Virus record (IMG/VR): IMGVR_UViG_3300032237_001118 | Coordinates: 1 to 58,394 of that record | Strand: one strand, 5' to 3' | Source of the DNA: a virus | Lineage: Duplodnaviria > Caudoviricetes | Length of the DNA stretch: 58,394 nt | In this document: in pieces, positions 22,853 through 46,014 of the stretch | Position numbering within the stretch: the stretch's first letter is position 1 | Layout: the number at the start of each line of letters is the position of its first letter | Translations under genes and position numbers: made by a program | Notes under the pieces: generated by a model | What the model saw: the letters and a program-made list of their open reading frames with translations, nothing else | The model's database searches: none | What the model was told of the DNA's origin: nothing

Positions 22853-23350
22853 ATGAGTAAAAGATTTCAAATCACAGAAACGGAAATAGAGTCAATTAAG
22901 AAACTTTATATTTCAGAGCAGTCTCAAAAAGAAGAAGATAGAAAGTTCTGCCATGGTGGAAACGTTAAAACTTTAGAGGAGATTGTTGGAGACGACGACG
23001 CTGAAGATTATATTGAAGGTGTTAAAATAAGAAAAGGAGGAATCAACGGATTAGTTGATAGACTTGAATTGTTAAAAACTTTAAGACTTCATCCGAAAGT
23101 TTCCGATGGTGGAGAACATTTGGCATACGATGTAATGAACCATTTAAAAGAGTTCAAACCCTACAACTACTTTGACGAAACAAAAAAAGAATGTAATAGA
23201 GCAATGGATAAAATTATTGAACTTTACAAAGAGAACGAACACGGGGAAGAGTTAGTAAAAGATATTGAAAAAGTTTATGGTATGCAACACGTATCTCCAA
23301 GAGCAAAAGAATTTTTAAAACACGGAATTTCTATGATTAAGGGTGAATAA
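22853..23350 (+). CDS. Hypothetical protein with ITETEIESI..ISEQ leader
   Basis: Leader motif, TATTTAT upstream. Confidence 0.75.
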   Translation: MSKRFQITETEIESIKKLYISEQSQKEEDRKFCHGGNVKTLEEIVGDDDAEDYIEGVKIRKGGINGLVDRLELLKTLRLHPKVSDGGEHLAYDVMNHLKEFKPYNYFDETKKECNRAMDKIIELYKENEHGEELVKDIEKVYGMQHVSPRAKEFLKHGISMIKGE

Positions 23351-24205: not shown

Positions 24206-24514
24206 ATGGAACAACAAAATATTTGGACAGTTTTAATTACTATCGTTGGAGTTTTAGGTTCGGCAAGTGCATGGAGATTTTACGAGAAAAAATCTATGAG
24301 GAAAGAAAGAGACGATGAGTTTATTCGTCACGACTGCAAAGACAGAATATCTAAATTAGAAGCATTATTAGAAAACTCGTCTAAAGAAAAAGATGAAATG
24401 AGACAAACAATATTAAAATTGACTGAACAAGTTGCTGCTTTAGCTGTTAAAGTTGAATATTTACAAAAAGAAAATTCTGACCTATATAAATCACTTAACA
24501 AGTCATCAATATAA
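24206..24514 (+). CDS. Single-TM coiled-coil protein (possibly lysis-related)
   Basis: N-terminal TM helix followed by heptad repeats. Confidence 0.6.
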   Translation: MEQQNIWTVLITIVGVLGSASAWRFYEKKSMRKERDDEFIRHDCKDRISKLEALLENSSKEKDEMRQTILKLTEQVAALAVKVEYLQKENSDLYKSLNKSSI

Positions 24515-25608
24515 TGAAAAAAATAATAAGACTTACTGAATCTGATTTAGAAAAAATTATTAAAAAAGTTTTAAAAGAAGACCCTCAACCACTTCCTGAC
24601 ATGGAAAATATCCCATTAGGGAAAGTTGAAGCGGTACAACAAGCCTTAATTGATGCGGGATATGACGTAGGACCAACAGGTGTGGATGGTAAATTTGGTA
24701 GTAATACAAGAGCTGCAGTAATCAAATATCAAAAAAATAATGGTATTAAACAAACAGGTAATGTTGGACCTGTAACGGGTGGTAAATTGGGGGTAGAACC
24801 TTTAACTTCTGGAAGACCATTAACCAAAACCCCTACAACACCAAAACCAAATAAAACCCCTTCGGGATATGATTTGTCCAGAACGACTAATAAATCATCA
24901 GTAAAGGGACAAACCGTAGTTAATTTAAAACAAAAAGTTCCTGACCTCAAATTTATGAGACAAGATATGCCATCTGATTATTTGGGTAAGGGTGGAGGAT
25001 TTGAAAGACACTTATATGGAGGTAGTCAAGAAGATTATGTTAAAATGCAACAGTTACTTGGTAAAGTTCCTCCTGCAAAAAAATCTTCACTTCCATTACA
25101 CATTAGAGCTTTAATGGATTATTTAGCTGGTAGAACCAAACCATTTACAGCATCAGACTTAACAAAAGAGGAGCAACAATTTCTTAAAAATGTTGCAATT
25201 AATAATGCAAAAACAGGTTTATTATATAAAACTTGGAAGTCAATAGGGGCAGGTAATTTACCAACGGCAATGACCACTACTGGCTCTGAAAAAGAAACTG
25301 AAAAATTCAAAACCACTGCTCAAGGAAGTTTATCAAATCCTGGTTTAGCGGGTGAATTTATGTATACTTTAGGAGAAGTTGACCCACCAGCAATCAAGGT
25401 AGCACCTGACAAAAAATCTGTTACAGTTAGAGATAATTATGATTTTAATAGTGTTGGTTTACCTAAAGATAAAATAATGAAAAACTTCACAGACGCTTTA
25501 TCAAGCTATTTTACAGGTAAAGGAACGTTTTACAGTATTGTAAGAAATGCGGTTGCATTTAAAGAAATGAGTGGTTACCCAGGTTACCCTGTTAATATTA
25601 CTGTTTAA
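24514..25608 (+). CDS. Peptidoglycan-binding domain protein with MKKIIRLTESDL leader
   Basis: VQQALIDAGYDVGPTGVDGKFGSNTRAAVIKYQKNNGI is a PG_binding_1 pattern. Confidence 0.82.
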   Translation: MKKIIRLTESDLEKIIKKVLKEDPQPLPDMENIPLGKVEAVQQALIDAGYDVGPTGVDGKFGSNTRAAVIKYQKNNGIKQTGNVGPVTGGKLGVEPLTSGRPLTKTPTTPKPNKTPSGYDLSRTTNKSSVKGQTVVNLKQKVPDLKFMRQDMPSDYLGKGGGFERHLYGGSQEDYVKMQQLLGKVPPAKKSSLPLHIRALMDYLAGRTKPFTASDLTKEEQQFLKNVAINNAKTGLLYKTWKSIGAGNLPTAMTTTGSEKETEKFKTTAQGSLSNPGLAGEFMYTLGEVDPPAIKVAPDKKSVTVRDNYDFNSVGLPKDKIMKNFTDALSSYFTGKGTFYSIVRNAVAFKEMSGYPGYPVNITV

Positions 25609-26077
25609 CAATAATATTTCCAAACACTTCGGATAGACTTGGGTCGATATAATAAACATCACCAGTTGTATTATTTTTTACAATAGATATATCATGGTCT
25701 TTTAATGATGGGGAATTAGAAAAATGAATATTTTGCCCCATGAATAACACCTTAGCTCTTGCATGAGATATTGTAACGTTTCCCACATTATTCTTTTTTA
25801 ACTCCTCAAACAATTTTTTATTATAGTATTTTGCATATCCAACGCAATTTCCAACTTTAGTCTTGAAAACAAGACTTGTTTTACTTTTTAATTTAAAAGA
25901 CAAATCGTTTTTGGTGGATATTAATGCGTCAGACAATATAGGTTCCAAATTTTGAATTGGATTACCATTAATTTTTTCTACAGAGATTACAGATAAAATC
26001 TTGTAATTGAATAGATGGTTAGAAACCGTGAAAGAAAATAAAAATAAACTGAGTATGATTAGACCTAATTTTTTCAT
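25598..26077 (-). CDS. Exported protein, transglutaminase/papain-like fold candidate
   Basis: Signal-like N-terminus; GNCVGYA, DHD and YYIDPS give a candidate Cys-His-Asp triad. Confidence 0.45.
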   Translation of the reverse strand: MKKLGLIILSLFLFSFTVSNHLFNYKILSVISVEKINGNPIQNLEPILSDALISTKNDLSFKLKSKTSLVFKTKVGNCVGYAKYYNKKLFEELKKNNVGNVTISHARAKVLFMGQNIHFSNSPSLKDHDISIVKNNTTGDVYYIDPSLSEVFGNIIVKQ

Positions 26078-26115
26078 TTCACAAAAATAATGAAAATATT
26101 GACAATACAAAATTT

Positions 26116-26905: not shown

Positions 26906-26924
26906 AATGTTTTTTATATCTTTG
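26893..26924 (+). promoter_or_regulatory. Bacteroidota-type promoter 1 of RNA cluster
   Basis: GTTG-N20-TATCTTTG. Confidence 0.65.
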
Positions 26925-26928
26925 TAAA

Positions 26929-26976
26929 AGAGTTTGGAACTTATAGGTAATGAAAGATACTCGGTATCCAAACTTT
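26929..26976 (+). ncRNA. Candidate ~50-nt structured small RNA
   Basis: AGTTTGGA/TCCAAACT closing stem and GATAC-TCG-GTATC hairpin directly after a promoter; no ORF. Confidence 0.4.
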
Positions 26977-26985
26977 AAAAAAAGA

Positions 26986-27038
26986 TTTGACGGTTTAAAA
27001 AAATCTTCTTATCTTTGTGAAACAAAAGTTCTTTAAAA
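26986..27038 (+). promoter_or_regulatory. Bacteroidota-type promoter 2 with boxA-like element
   Basis: TTTG(26986)-N20-TATCTTTG(27010), then AAGTTCTTTAAAA resembling the rRNA-leader boxA. Confidence 0.75.
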
Positions 27039-27043
27039 TATAT

Positions 27044-27133
27044 GGTTGTGGTAGCTCAGGAATCTTTCGGGATTCGCGGTAGAGCAATTATCTGAACAGT
27101 AATGTGCCGTTGGTTCGACTCCAATCCCAACCA
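27044..27133 (+). tRNA. Non-canonical tRNA-Phe(GAA)-like RNA with UUCG hairpin inserted in the D-loop
   Basis: Acceptor GGTTG(T)GG/CCCAACC; D stem GCTC/GAGC; insert GAATCT-TTCG-GGATTC; anticodon arm ATTAT-CTGAACA-GTAAT; T arm GTTGG-TTCGACT-CCAAT. Confidence 0.75.
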
Positions 27134-27185
27134 CGAAAGTCCTCCGAATTAAAGACGTTTTATTTTCGGAATTTTCATTAAAAGA

Positions 27186-27217
27186 TTTGGAAGGTATTAA
27201 AATCTTTCTTATCTTTG
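27186..27217 (+). promoter_or_regulatory. Bacteroidota-type promoter 3 of RNA cluster
   Basis: TTTG-N20-TATCTTTG; flanks similar to promoter 2. Confidence 0.75.
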
Positions 27218-27225
27218 TAAAAGAA

Positions 27226-27522
27226 ATGGACAGCGGAATGTTTTTTAGTGGTGGTTCCCCATACTCACCCGAACATCTTTCTTCTCCGCATTACAAATTA
27301 GAAAAATGTTAAATAAAACACGGGCGGTTGTGTGGAATGTTCTCCCTGTCTGACCTTAATCAGACTAAAACAACGGGTCTTTTTGGATGTTTTGGATTAG
27401 AACTAAAACAGGAGTTTGTCCGACTTTATGGGTGTTGATGGTTTACCCTACCTAAAGAAGAACCATATACTTTTTCCCTGACGGGGGATTTTGAGGGAGA
27501 CGCGACGGTGTCTCCCTTTTTT
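27226..27522 (+). ncRNA. Candidate ~300-nt multi-helix structured RNA ending in an intrinsic terminator
   Basis: GC-richer than flanks, no long ORF, at least 7 hand-identified helices; terminator AGGGAGAC/GTCTCCCT plus T run at 27493-27522. Confidence 0.6.
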
Positions 27523-27554
27523 TGTTTGTTTTATATTTATAAATAAAACAAAAC

Positions 27555-45931: not shown

Positions 45932-46014
45932 CGGAGGGAGACGGGCTCGAACCCCCAAAGCCTTTCAGCTCAACTGTTTTCAAGACAGCATCCTCACCAA
46001 TTCGGATTCCCTCC
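45932..46014 (-). tRNA. tRNA-Ser(TGA)
   Basis: GGAGGGA/TCCCTCC acceptor, G discriminator, GCTGT-CTTGAAA-ACAGT anticodon arm, long variable arm AGCT-GAAA-GGCT, TTCGAGC T loop (one T-stem mismatch); CCA not encoded. Confidence 0.88.

What the first reader, a model, noticed from the sequence alone, without database searches (positions are those of the whole stretch)
27044..27133. tRNA-Phe(GAA)-like RNA with an extra UUCG-capped hairpin in the D-loop
Seen: all four cloverleaf arms are present, but a 16-nt hairpin GAATCT-TTCG-GGATTC (27060-27075) sits between A14-G15 and the conserved GG. The acceptor stem has a bulged T and position 37 is C rather than a purine. A stable tetraloop hairpin at a defined site looks selected rather than decayed. 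Inference: an elbow-modified tRNA or tRNA mimic (anticodon-nuclease decoy, synthetase or ribosome ligand), or a tRNA with a removable non-canonical intron.
Basis: partly seen in the sequence, partly recalled or inferred. Interest (0 to 1): 0.8.

Follow-up and report, generated by a model that had tools for sequence, protein, structure and literature searches.

The report
Phage tRNA-Phe with extra D-loop arm
A family of large, uncultured bacteriophages carries a phenylalanine tRNA gene with a conserved fifth hairpin arm inserted in its D-loop and a one-base bulge in its acceptor stem, a tRNA shape I found described nowhere, whose purpose is still open.

Summary
Window 27044-27133 (+) is a tRNA-Phe(GAA)-type cloverleaf. 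It has a 16-nt UUCG hairpin (27060-27075) between G15 and G18, a bulged T (27049) in the acceptor stem, and C at position 37 (27097).

It is not decay. I collected 155 copies (72 distinct) from viral and metagenome contigs. All six pairs of the inserted helix show compensatory changes, and the core tertiary-contact bases read in the window, GAA and A73 are kept. The hosts are jumbo phages of about 320 kb. Each complete genome examined has one copy, outside the normal tRNA array, under its own Bacteroidota-type promoter.

Some distant syntenic relatives carry the gene with the bulge but no hairpin, and one carries a fully canonical tRNA-Phe. The hairpin is therefore an acquired and then maintained decoration.

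The anticodon arm is irregular: loops of 6, 7 or 8 nt and stems of 4-6 bp. Only UGAA is fixed.

An intron is unlikely. The insert has no bulge-helix-bulge motif, and the relatives' genomes encode no splicing endonuclease or RtcB.

Best reading (about 0.4): a chargeable phage tRNA-Phe with recognition surfaces remodelled against host tRNA-directed enzymes. Main rival (about 0.3): a non-decoding tRNA mimic.

Expression of the tRNA itself was not shown. An adjacent, unclassified RNA of about 300 nt is abundant in metatranscriptome contigs.

The parts
26986..27017 (+). Bacteroidota-type promoter-like motif (TTTG-N-TAtcTTTG) 27 nt upstream of the tRNA
   Evidence: Pattern match (9 matches in the window against 4.59 expected by chance). 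The motif is conserved upstream of the tRNA in relatives. The near-identical motif at 27186-27217 lies 3-7 nt before the ends of RNA contigs. The consensus itself is recalled, not taken from a call.
27044..27133 (+). Five-armed tRNA-Phe(GAA)-type gene. CCA is not encoded in this copy.
   Evidence: (99.5 bits to family model R1).
27049..27049 (+). Bulged nucleotide in the 5' strand of the acceptor stem, between pairs 5 and 6
   Evidence: It is T in 57 and A in 15 of 72 distinct copies. In the viral scan, which did not fix this strand, all 42 copies have A or T here. In L398 the bulge is C and acceptor pair 4 has changed in a compensatory way.
27060..27075 (+). Extra hairpin (6 bp plus a UUCG loop) inserted in the D-loop between G15 and G18
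   Evidence: All 6 pairs covary. All 72 inserts fold into hairpins of 4-9 bp; 17 have UUCG loops and 15 have GNRA loops. The sequence is not repeated elsewhere in the window.
27092..27098 (+). Anticodon loop CUGAACA: U33, GAA at 27094-27096, C37 at 27097
   Evidence: Across the family, position 37 is C in 32, A in 35 and G in 5 of 72.
27143..27176 (+). Weak terminator-like hairpin (TCCGAA...TTCGGA, then ATTTTC) after the tRNA
   Evidence: Read. It was not called by the scan because its loop exceeds 8 nt. Relatives have a tighter hairpin plus a T-run at the same place.
26930..26975 (+). Conserved upstream hairpin element, placed behind its own TAtcTTTG box at 26917-26924. In several relatives it is the 5' leader of the tRNA.
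   Evidence: the stem covaries, the loop CTTAYAGGYRATGAAAGATACTCGGT is conserved, and in 7 of 21 relatives examined it lies directly before the tRNA.
27186..27217 (+). Second Bacteroidota-type promoter-like motif, in front of the downstream RNA
   Evidence: RNA contigs start at 27220-27224 in three runs (records 10, 16, 21).
27220..27524 (+). Conserved, structured, unclassified non-coding RNA of about 300 nt, ending in an intrinsic terminator (27493-27518 plus a T-run)
   Evidence: Alignment with indels that are not multiples of three. 43 predicted pairs, 25 of them with compensatory changes. No Rfam family. Terminator. Found in 144 of 155 family loci. RNA contigs from 4 runs of 4 studies cover 27200-27480 at depths of hundreds to thousands.

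Best explanation
**What it is (shown).** This is a real, vertically inherited phage gene for a tRNA-Phe(GAA) whose gene sequence predicts a normal L-shaped core plus a fifth helix. The helix projects from the D-loop at positions 16/17, in the 'variable pocket' at the elbow. The acceptor stem carries a one-nucleotide bulge.

**How it most likely works (inferred).**
1. It is transcribed from its own Bacteroidota-type promoter.
2. RNase P trims the leader; every relative examined has T at position -1.
3. Host enzymes finish the 3' end and add CCA.
4. The host PheRS charges it, because the universal Phe identity set (G34, A35, A36, A73) and the bacterial extras (U20, A26:G44, mostly U45) are kept.
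5. It then serves as the phage's own phenylalanine tRNA.

The hairpin, the bulge, and the fast-changing positions 32, 37 and 38 and arm length would alter the surfaces that host tRNA-directed enzymes read. Such enzymes include defence nucleases and modifying or inactivating enzymes. Phe decoding would thus survive infection-triggered attack on tRNA.
For: **Family and structure.**
- 155 copies, 72 distinct.
- Covariation in the hairpin (6 of 6 pairs), the anticodon stem (4 of 5) and the T stem (3 of 5). The acceptor stem is 100% paired, with only UA-to-UG changes.
- G-U pairs occur on this strand only, which points to an RNA rather than a DNA structure.
- The partners of the tertiary contacts 8-14, 15-48, 18-55, 19-56, 26-44 and 54-58 can be read in the window sequence. 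Much of the D arm and 5' acceptor strand was fixed by the search patterns.

**Phe identity.**
- GAA in 68 of 72, and GGAA in the other 4. A73 in 71 of 72.
- This matches the Phe identity set in Table 1 and the section 'Phenylalanine identity' of PMC9976931 (passages seen).

**Ancestry.**
- In a sample anchored on a neighbouring protein rather than on the tRNA, 37 of 80 loci had the tRNA within the fetched flank. Of these, 31 have hairpin and bulge, 1 has the hairpin only, 4 have the bulge only, and 1 is a fully canonical tRNA-Phe at the same place. The gene therefore descends from an ordinary tRNA-Phe.

**Relation to the canonical tRNA-Phe.**
- The complete genome G002 has the odd tRNA with a canonical 17-nt anticodon arm and no other tRNA-Phe.
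- Genomes whose odd tRNA has a 15- or 16-nt arm (G011, G001, G012, G013, G014, G018) do carry a canonical tRNA-Phe.

**Precedents in print.**
- Phage tRNAs that escape anticodon nucleases through changes beside the anticodon: PMC10264068 (title and abstract seen), PMC11555353 (abstract seen), PMC13056530 (passages seen).
- tRNAs with 4-bp anticodon stems are reported as frequent in bacteria: PMC13092985 (title, start of abstract and passages seen).
Against: - Half of the distinct copies (36 of 72) have anticodon arms of non-standard length: 15 nt in 5, 16 nt in 26, 18 nt in 5.
- ARAGORN reads 18 copies as having 6-nt loops and 4 as having 8-nt loops.
- Position 37 is a pyrimidine in 32 of 72. 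From recalled knowledge, this is nearly unknown in decoding tRNAs and should weaken reading-frame maintenance.
- The complete genomes G006 and G010 carry a related hairpin type with loops CUCGAAAG and AACGAAAG (no U33), and the strict pattern found no canonical tRNA-Phe in them. This breaks the compensation pattern described above.
- The hairpin sits in the variable pocket that E. coli PheRS reads (U20, U59), so charging might be impaired.
- No nuclease that targets tRNA-Phe in these hosts is known to me, and the host itself is only inferred.
- The whole-molecule fold energy is not better than shuffles.
Confidence: 0.4

Rival explanations
1. It is a non-decoding tRNA mimic. The RNA keeps the tRNA top half and the UGAA/GAA signature so that a tRNA-Phe-binding protein takes it up. 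Candidates are an anticodon nuclease, PheRS, a stringent-response or CCA-modifying factor, or a phage enzyme. It would act as a decoy, sponge or cofactor, possibly in Phe-charged form, rather than on the ribosome.
For: - Anticodon-arm geometry is not held constant: arm lengths run from 15 to 18 nt and loops are 6, 7 or 8 nt, while only UGAA is fixed.
- C37 occurs in 32 of 72 copies.
- The acceptor, D and T regions are far more conserved than the anticodon stem.
- The gene lies apart from the tRNA array under its own promoter, and coexists with a canonical tRNA-Phe in G001, G011, G012, G013, G014 and G018.
- In one subclade it is fused, after an encoded CCA, to an RNA that is very abundant in RNA libraries. 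This implies high co-expression.
- Hairpin-bearing Phe-type tRNAs recur in other phage lineages, including one directly beside a canonical tRNA-Phe in G004.
Against: - A fully canonical tRNA-Phe occupies the same locus in L363, and bulge-only forms occupy it in L377 and L398.
- G002 has no other tRNA-Phe.
- A73 and the Phe identity set are kept. A pure nuclease decoy would not need them.
- No partner protein was identified. No PheRS core, L/F-transferase, splicing endonuclease or RtcB was found in G001, G002 or G005.
- The hairpin loop sequence is not conserved, which argues against a sequence-specific protein site on the hairpin.
Confidence: 0.3
2. It is a processing or 'punctuation' element. 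The tRNA-like fold mainly recruits RNase P and the 3' tRNA processing enzymes, which then cut a multi-RNA transcript and set the ends of the upstream hairpin RNA and the downstream RNA of about 300 nt.
For: - In L005, L047, L012 and L029 the order is promoter, hairpin element, tRNA-CCA, downstream RNA, with no promoter or terminator in between.
- In L007, L021 and L016 the hairpin element also lies directly before the tRNA.
- The tRNA and the downstream RNA are adjacent in 144 of 155 loci.
- One run has RNA contigs covering 27159-27250, upstream of the predicted start of the downstream RNA.
- The top half of the tRNA is the best conserved part.
Against: - Most lineages, including the window, have a terminator-like hairpin and a separate promoter between the tRNA and the downstream RNA.
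- Processing does not explain why GAA and A73 are conserved, nor why a covarying extra helix is kept.
- The whole region is syntenic, so adjacency may be simple inheritance.
Confidence: 0.1
3. The hairpin is a small non-canonical intron. It would be removed after transcription to give an ordinary tRNA-Phe of about 74 nt.
For: - Removing exactly the hairpin leaves a normal D-loop of 8-10 nt. ARAGORN then calls tRNA-Phe(gaa) in 40 of 72 copies, including the window's.
- D-loop inserts that look like introns exist in archaeal genomes; examples are L138, L145, L147, L165 and L209.
- PMC4090602 reviews tRNA introns at unusual positions (abstract seen in a search listing).
Against: - The insert is a plain stem-loop, often capped by UUCG or GNRA (32 of 72). 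It has no bulge-helix-bulge geometry (read from the sequences).
- No tRNA_int_endo and no RtcB was found in any of 5 phage records searched, 4 of them at least 98% complete. The controls found them where expected.
- From recalled knowledge, no bacterial machinery for such splicing is known.
- The helix is kept by compensatory change while its loop and length drift. This is as expected for a structural arm.
- The bulge and the irregular anticodon arms would remain after splicing.
Confidence: 0.05
4. It is a decaying tRNA pseudogene or a chance resemblance.
For: - The Rfam score is borderline (29.4 against 29; E = 0.044 for the whole window).
- ARAGORN miscalls it.
- The fold energy is not better than shuffles.
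- No RNA contig covers it. That result is not evidence of absence.
Against: - There are 72 distinct homologues. Compensatory changes occur in three helices, and the acceptor stem stays fully paired.
- Promoter and terminator are conserved.
- Each of the three family genomes examined has one copy, at a syntenic place.
Confidence: 0.02

Closest known systems
Canonical bacterial or phage tRNA-Phe(GAA) (Rfam RF00005). One example is the 74-nt tRNA-Phe in the tRNA array of the related phage record G001 (L074:1576-1649, minus strand).
   Same: - Four standard arms.
- D-stem GCUC/GAGC.
- U8, A14, G15, G18 G19 U20, A26, G44 U45 G46, C48.
- T-loop UUCGA, GAA anticodon and A73.
- One syntenic relative (L363) is exactly such a tRNA.
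   Different: - A helix of 15-28 nt between G15 and G18.
- A bulged base in the acceptor stem.
- C37 in 32 of 72 copies.
- Anticodon arms of 15-18 nt.
- A separate locus with its own promoter.
Class II tRNAs (bacterial Leu, Ser, Tyr) with a long variable arm
   Same: A five-armed tRNA in which an extra helix projects from the core while the L shape is kept. This comparison is recalled knowledge. The review PMC7609411 (passages seen) notes that only the D arm and the variable arm differ in size among tRNAs.
   Different: The extra helix leaves from D-loop positions 16/17, not from positions 44-48. The variable loop here is the ordinary 5 nt (GUGCC or GAGCC).
Archaeal (and some eukaryotic) tRNA genes with non-canonical bulge-helix-bulge introns in the D-loop
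   Same: An insertion of tens of nucleotides inside the D-loop of the gene. Examples were seen in DPANN and Nitrososphaerota genomes.
   Different: - No bulge-helix-bulge motif.
- A phage whose promoter motifs suggest a bacterial (Bacteroidota) host.
- No splicing endonuclease or RtcB in the related phage genomes.
- The helix is conserved by covariation.
tRNAs with non-7/5 acceptor branches: tRNA-Sec (8/5, 9/4) and allo-tRNAs (8/4, 9/3); PMC5389517 and PMC7609411
   Same: Natural tRNAs that depart from the 7-bp acceptor stem. The 5' strand here has 8 nucleotides, as in bacterial tRNA-Sec (abstract of PMC5389517 seen; passages of PMC7609411 seen).
   Different: Here the 3' strand has 7 nucleotides, which gives 7 pairs plus a bulge and not an eighth pair. 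The T stem is 5 bp. There is no long variable arm. The anticodon is GAA, not UCA.
Phage tRNAs that evade tRNA-targeting defences through anticodon-loop changes (PMC10264068; PMC11555353)
   Same: Phage-encoded, with the anticodon kept while neighbouring loop positions differ. This is the proposed logic for my best explanation (title and abstracts seen).
   Different: In the text of PMC10264068 held in the library, none of the terms 'D-loop', 'acceptor', 'Phe' or 'loop size' occurs. No extra arm or acceptor bulge is described there. No cognate nuclease is known for the present case.
tRNA-like structures that mimic the top half of a tRNA (tmRNA tRNA-like domain, plant-virus TLS, bacterial YrlA, mascRNA)
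   Same: They keep the acceptor/T-arm/elbow mimicry and recruit tRNA-processing enzymes, while the anticodon region is free to change (recalled knowledge).
   Different: The present RNA keeps a complete cloverleaf, a GAA loop and A73. None of those Rfam families matched the window.

Membership tests
tRNA (Rfam RF00005) | Match to the covariance model at or above the gathering score | tested here: met
   29.4 bits against a gathering score of 29, with model positions 1-71 all matched. This is borderline because of the insert.
tRNA (Rfam RF00005) | Four-arm cloverleaf supported by covariation | tested here: met
   the anticodon stem has compensatory changes in 4 of 5 pairs and the T stem in 3 of 5. 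The acceptor and D stems are 100% paired. Their 5' strands were partly fixed by the search patterns.
tRNA (Rfam RF00005) | Conserved tertiary-interaction nucleotides (U8, A14, G18 G19, T54 Psi55 C56, A58, the 15-48 pair) | tested here: met
   Read and in the alignments. The numbering and the list of contacts are recalled knowledge.
tRNA (Rfam RF00005) | D-loop of about 7-11 nt | tested here: not met
   The window has 24 nt between the D-stem strands (27058-27081). Across the family, 15-28 nt lie between AGCTCAG and GGTAGAGC.
tRNA (Rfam RF00005) | 7-bp acceptor stem without a bulge | tested here: not met
   There are 7 pairs plus one bulged base on the 5' strand: 72 of 72 and 42 of 42 in the scan that did not fix this strand.
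tRNA (Rfam RF00005) | 5-bp anticodon stem, 7-nt loop, U33 and a purine at position 37 | tested here: not met
   The window has a 5-bp stem, a 7-nt loop and U33, but C37. In the family only 36 of 72 arms are 17 nt long, and position 37 is C in 32 of 72.
tRNA (Rfam RF00005) | Expressed, carrying a 3' CCA, and aminoacylated | not testable with these tools
   RNA runs were available only as contigs, and none covers 27040-27127. That is no evidence either way.
tRNA-Phe identity (bacterial PheRS substrate) | G34 A35 A36 and A73, plus U20, A26:G44, U45 and U59 (Table 1 of PMC9976931) | tested here: inconclusive
   GAA is present in 68 of 72 copies (GGAA in 4), A73 in 71 of 72, A26 in 69 of 72, and U45 in 56 of 72. 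U20 was fixed by the search pattern. Position 59 is C in the window. Charging itself was not tested, and the insert lies in the pocket formed by positions 16, 17, 20, 59 and 60.
Bulge-helix-bulge tRNA intron | Two 3-nt bulges separated by a 4-bp helix at the exon-intron borders | tested here: not met
   By inspection, the insert is a closed hairpin of 4-9 bp flanked by 0-3 unpaired bases.
Bulge-helix-bulge tRNA intron | A splicing endonuclease (tRNA_int_endo) and an RNA ligase (RtcB) available | tested here: not met
   0 of 5 phage records have either, and the controls were positive where expected. The host genome is unknown.
tRNA-Sec or allo-tRNA | 8/5, 9/4, 8/4 or 9/3 acceptor/T branch, long variable arm, and a UCA or other special anticodon | tested here: not met
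   The branch is 7 bp plus a bulge over 5 bp, the variable loop is 5 nt, and the anticodon is GAA. ARAGORN's 'SeC' calls on 5 native sequences are artefacts of the insert.

The most novel reading that the evidence does not exclude
The five-armed tRNA-Phe-like RNA is one part of a three-RNA module that is conserved in freshwater jumbo phages: a leader hairpin, the tRNA-like RNA, and an abundant structured RNA of about 300 nt. In this reading it does not decode. It works with, or is sensed by, the neighbouring RNA or a shared protein partner. It could act as a highly expressed Phe-tRNA mimic that reprogrammes or blinds a host tRNA-sensing pathway. The extra elbow helix and the acceptor bulge would mark it as 'not for the ribosome'.
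Probability: 0.15. Interest if true: 0.9.

Novelty: new variant of a known kind. Interest (0 to 1): 0.72.

Why it matters
tRNA architecture is among the most constrained in biology. The review of non-canonical tRNAs that I consulted (PMC7609411, passages seen) lists variation in acceptor/T lengths, D-stem length, variable arms and mitochondrial truncations. The passages I saw do not mention an extra helix inside the D-loop, and the word 'phage' does not occur in its text.

A covarying fifth arm at the elbow bears on several questions. The elbow is the place read by RNase P, the ribosomal L1 stalk, T-box leaders and, in E. coli, PheRS's 'variable pocket'.
- If the RNA decodes, it shows that the translation machinery tolerates an elbow helix. 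It would also provide a natural scaffold for tagged or orthogonal tRNAs.
- If it does not decode, it is a new class of phage tRNA mimic, and it points to an unknown tRNA-Phe-directed process in Bacteroidota-like hosts.

Standard tRNA finders miss or mislabel it. ARAGORN called 0 of 72 copies as Phe, and the Rfam score is borderline. Such genes are therefore probably absent from phage tRNA censuses.

Tried and rejected
- **Whole genome of the window:** none is held.
- **Deposited phages:** no DNA match among 50,697 records, either with a 3-kb query or with a 116-nt query.
- **RNA evidence for the tRNA:** four metatranscriptome runs were laid as contigs, and none covers 27040-27127. This says nothing about expression, because contigs and standard libraries rarely keep tRNAs. 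One low-depth joint in a single run skips 27026-27206 (depth 3.4, 21-nt side). I treat it as a relative's different arrangement.
- **Repeated palindromic element:** the hairpin sequence occurs once in the window. The only other hit needs 3 mismatches, and 10 of 100 shuffles do as well.
- **Partner enzymes:** tRNA_int_endo, RtcB, Leu_Phe_trans and the PheRS core were not found in G001, G002 or G005. There is one weak class-II synthetase-like hit in G003. CCA-adding-type enzymes were found only in G003 and G004, which are other phage lineages.
- **Neighbouring genes in the window:** a non-specific endonuclease, a holin-like protein, a protein with a PG_binding_1 domain, Laminin_G_3 proteins and a phosphoesterase. 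None has an evident link to tRNA.
- **T-box-like pairing:** the downstream RNA's UGGUGGUU is complementary to the tRNA's AACCACCA 3' end in the window. However, its first U varies (C, A or U), the fused subclade has UGGUGUUU, and the one copy with G73 shows no informative change. A possible UUC 'specifier' showed no covariation with the GGAA variants. The Rfam T-box model did not match. I rejected this idea as unsupported.
- **Anchor protein 25598-26110:** it gave no relatives.
- **The 43 of 80 marker-anchored loci without a hit:** these cannot be read as absence. In some relatives the tRNA lies at the very edge of the 7-kb flank (L375, position 14190).
- **Literature:** searches for a D-loop hairpin or intron in phage tRNAs found nothing relevant. 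Supplementary files were not consulted.
Full report
**The observation**

Window 27044-27133 (+) reads as a tRNA-Phe(GAA) cloverleaf.
- The acceptor stem has 7 pairs plus a bulged T at 27049.
- U8/A9, the GCTC/GAGC D-stem and A14/G15 are in place.
- The hairpin GAATCT-TTCG-GGATTC follows at 27060-27075, then GC and G18 G19 U20 A21.
- The anticodon stem has 5 bp. Its loop is CUGAACA, with GAA at 27094-27096 and C37 at 27097.
- The variable loop is GUGCC, the T arm has the loop UUCGACU, and A73 is at 27133.

Rfam's tRNA model matches at 29.4 bits (gathering score 29) and places 22 nt where the D-loop model has 5. ARAGORN returns a forced tRNA-Arg(tcg) that misuses the true anticodon arm as a variable arm. 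The single-sequence fold finds the hairpin, but the whole-molecule energy is not unusual (z = 0.15). The single sequence alone therefore proves little.

**Homologues**

Three scans recovered the family.
- An exact-pattern scan of IMG/VR, anchored only on the two D-stem segments with an 8-30 nt gap, returned 62 stretches. Forty-two are the same gene, several are other tRNAs with D-loop inserts, and 13 are chance hits in coding sequence.
- A second scan, anchored on the T arm and 3' acceptor strand, recovered the same 42 plus 12 unrelated tRNAs. It found no family member without the insert.
Of these, 112 are complete copies, 6 are copies cut by contig ends and 2 are non-tRNA hits.

With the window's own copy this gives 155 copies and 72 distinct sequences.

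I built covariance model R1 and aligned the 72 distinct sequences. The results are:
- 94.7% of cells are standard pairs, against 82.8% in shuffles.
- The covariation score is 0.372 against 0.141 (reached by 0 of 500 shuffles). Slid controls give 0.056-0.090.
- In the inserted helix all 6 pairs show changes on both sides. For example, one pair is UA in 37 and CG in 33 sequences, and another takes six pair types.
- The anticodon stem covaries in 4 of 5 pairs and the T stem in 3 of 5.
- The acceptor stem is always paired, with only UA-to-UG changes.

Two caveats apply. The alignment was fitted to the model, and the 5' acceptor strand and D-stem were partly fixed by the search patterns. The frequent G-U pairs on this strand indicate an RNA structure, not a DNA one.

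All 72 inserts fold into hairpins of 4-9 bp. Forty-six have tetraloops, of which 17 are UUCG and 15 are GNRA, but the loop sequence is not conserved.

ARAGORN calls none of the 72 native sequences Phe. With the hairpin columns removed by script, it tRNA-Phe(gaa), 18 with a two-base 'anticodon' (6-nt loop) and 4 with 'ggaa' (8-nt loop), and the rest get no call. The printed tallies sum to 73 for 72 sequences, so one 'none' is probably an artefact of parsing.

**Who carries it**

The window looks like phage DNA. It holds proteins matching endolysin families (one only through its PG-binding domain), a holin-like protein, virion-protein-like Laminin_G_3 proteins and many ORFs of unknown function, at about 31% G+C. 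It is syntenic at 65-90% DNA identity with the fetched loci. Several of those loci come from records of 317-326 kb that IMG/VR rates as complete.

Those genomes hold arrays of ordinary tRNAs, 24 in G001 and 14 in G002. Each has a single copy of the odd tRNA, 25-45 kb away from the array.

The window's copy sits 27 nt behind a TTTG...TAtcTTTG motif at 26986-27017. I recall this motif as the Bacteroidota promoter consensus, and it is the only basis for my host inference. A near-identical motif at 27186-27217 lies 3-7 nt before the ends of RNA contigs in three runs. This supports the motif being an active promoter.

In all 21 relatives examined the base before G1 is T. From recalled knowledge, this suits RNase P.

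Deposited phage genomes have no match.

**Ancestry of the insert**

To avoid sampling through the tRNA itself, I anchored on the neighbouring protein 22853-23350 and fetched 80 loci. Thirty-seven have an R1 hit within the 7-kb flank. They fall into these classes:

| Class | Loci | Count |
|---|---|---|
| Hairpin and bulge | family type | 31 |
| Hairpin, perfect acceptor stem | L346 | 1 |
| Bulge, no hairpin | L377, L398, L399, L401 | 4 |
| Fully canonical 75-nt tRNA-Phe | L363 | 1 |

L398 has GGTAG-C-GG pairing with CCCTACC. This is a compensatory change in acceptor pair 4 with the bulge retained, and it supports the bulged-stem model.

The gene therefore began as an ordinary tRNA-Phe at this locus, and the bulge and the hairpin were added and then maintained. 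The 43 loci without a hit cannot be scored as absence, because in L375 the tRNA lies at the very edge of the flank.

The complete genomes G006 and G010 carry, elsewhere in the genome, a related type with the hairpin but no bulge. Other phage lineages have their own hairpin-bearing GAA tRNAs. One lies directly beside a canonical tRNA-Phe in G004.

**The anticodon arm**

Only UGAA is fixed: GAA in 68 of 72 copies and GGAA in 4. Arm length is 15 nt in 5 copies, 16 in 26, 17 in 36 and 18 in 5. Position 37 is C in 32, A in 35 and G in 5. In the 16-nt arms the closing U-G pair becomes U-A in L228 and L277, so a 6-nt loop is likely to be real.

A strict pattern for a canonical tRNA-Phe gave these results:
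- It was found in G011, G001, G012, G013, G014 and G018. In these genomes the odd tRNA has a 15- or 16-nt arm.
- It was not found in complete G002, whose odd tRNA has a canonical 17-nt arm and 7-nt loop. ARAGORN also finds no Phe in G002's array loci.
- It was also not found in complete G006 and G010, whose odd tRNAs have 8-nt loops without U33. The pattern of compensation is therefore suggestive, not clean.

**What it probably does**

The four universal Phe identity elements (G34, A35, A36, A73) are kept, as are A26:G44 and mostly U45 (U20 was fixed by the search pattern). I checked these against Table 1 and the phenylalanine section of PMC9976931. [quoted passage not shown] That is where the extra helix emerges, so the insert could modulate PheRS recognition.

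I favour (about 0.4) a chargeable, decoding tRNA-Phe whose surfaces have been remodelled so that host tRNA-directed enzymes handle it poorly. This follows the published idea that phage tRNAs escape anticodon nucleases by changes next to the anticodon (PMC10264068 and PMC11555353, abstracts seen; PMC13056530, passages seen). tRNAs with 4-bp anticodon stems are reported as frequent in bacteria (PMC13092985).

The main rival (about 0.3) is a non-decoding mimic or decoy. It is favoured by the loose anticodon-arm geometry, by C37, by the separate highly conserved top half, and by coexistence with a normal tRNA-Phe.

Three further readings rank lower.
- A processing or 'punctuation' role (about 0.1) fits the lineages in which a leader hairpin, tRNA-CCA and the downstream RNA are fused. 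It does not explain why GAA and A73 are kept.
- An intron (about 0.05) is disfavoured. There is no bulge-helix-bulge motif, no splicing endonuclease or RtcB in 5 records, and the helix is conserved by covariation.
- Decay or chance (about 0.02) is contradicted.

**What is not shown**

Expression, CCA addition, charging and ribosome use of the tRNA are untested. The RNA runs were available only as contigs, and none covers the tRNA, which is uninformative. The host is inferred only from promoter motifs. No partner protein was found.

**Comparison and novelty**

The RNA is a tRNA by model score, cloverleaf and tertiary bases. It fails three textbook features: D-loop size, an unbulged acceptor stem, and a purine at position 37.

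My literature searches and the passages read in the review of non-canonical tRNAs (PMC7609411) turned up no natural tRNA with a helix inside the D-loop. Rfam has no separate family for it. I rate it a new variant of a known kind.

**Seen in passing**

Directly downstream (27220-27524) lies a conserved, structured RNA of about 300 nt.
- It has its own promoter and terminator.
- It matches no Rfam family.
- It accompanies the tRNA in 144 of 155 loci.
- RNA contigs from four runs of four studies cover it at depths of hundreds to thousands, while the flanking genes are almost bare.

Noticed in passing
window 27220-27524 (+): A conserved non-coding RNA of about 300 nt with its own promoter-like motif (27186-27217) and an intrinsic terminator (27493-27518). 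It has a long-range closing helix UGGAC/GUCCA and several covarying hairpins: 43 predicted pairs, 25 of them with compensatory changes. No Rfam family matches. RNA contigs from 4 metatranscriptome runs of 4 studies cover 27200-27480 at depths of hundreds to about 7000; one 262-nt contig spans 27220-27477. It is found beside the odd tRNA in 144 of 155 loci.
   Followed up: partly
window 26930-26975 (+): A hairpin element behind a TAtcTTTG box (26917-26924). The stem GTTTGGA/TCCAAAC covaries among relatives, and the loop CTTAYAGGYRATGAAAGATACTCGGT is highly conserved. In 7 of 21 relatives examined (L005, L047, L012, L029, L007, L021, L016) it lies directly before the tRNA as a 5' leader. L059, L062, L003 and L060 have a different hairpin at that place.
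   Followed up: partly
window 45932-46014 (-): A second tRNA: an 83-nt class II tRNA-Ser(UGA)-like gene with a long variable arm, G73 and one base missing at positions 8/9. It scores 30.2 bits against Rfam and is missed by ARAGORN.
   Followed up: partly
L045 6085-6173 (= G004:26787-26875); L025/L058; L052 13627-13724; L001 8505-8585; L346, L426, L428: Other phage lineages carry their own GAA-type tRNAs with a D-loop insert (a hairpin in all but L001) and irregular anticodon arms. Examples are the 8-nt loop CGUGAAAC, the loop CUGAACA on a bulged stem, and the loops AACGAAAG and CUCGAAAG, which contain a GAAA core flanked by C and G. In G004 the odd copy lies about 110 nt from a canonical tRNA-Phe.
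   Followed up: partly
L138, L145, L147, L165, L178, L209 (archaeal genome contigs); L152, L153, L160, L173 (bacterial contigs): The same D-arm pattern with a long gap also finds DPANN and Nitrososphaerota tRNA genes with D-loop inserts, which are probably bulge-helix-bulge introns. It further finds a few bacterial tRNA-like genes with a D-loop hairpin and, in L153, L160 and L173, a much enlarged anticodon region: a Bacteroidota MAG, a Jutongia MAG, the Breznakiella homolactica chromosome and a Verrucomicrobiota MAG.
   Followed up: no
L079 1717-1837 (-) (= G002:168681-168801): A 121-nt tRNA hit (36.1 bits) with 61 nt where the anticodon arm's 17 positions should be. It may be a tRNA with an insertion or intron in the anticodon region, inside the phage's tRNA array.
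   Followed up: no
window 24514-25608 (+): A 364-aa protein with an N-terminal PG_binding_1 domain (residues 37-88). It matches endolysin families only through that domain, and the remaining 270 or so residues match nothing. It follows a holin-like ORF at 24206-24514.
   Followed up: no
window 26995-27027 (RNA contig from run X19): One 499-nt RNA contig (depth 36) matches the tRNA's promoter region and then continues into a different sequence. This suggests that a relative uses the same promoter for another small gene (record 11 and the loose end at 27027).
   Followed up: no
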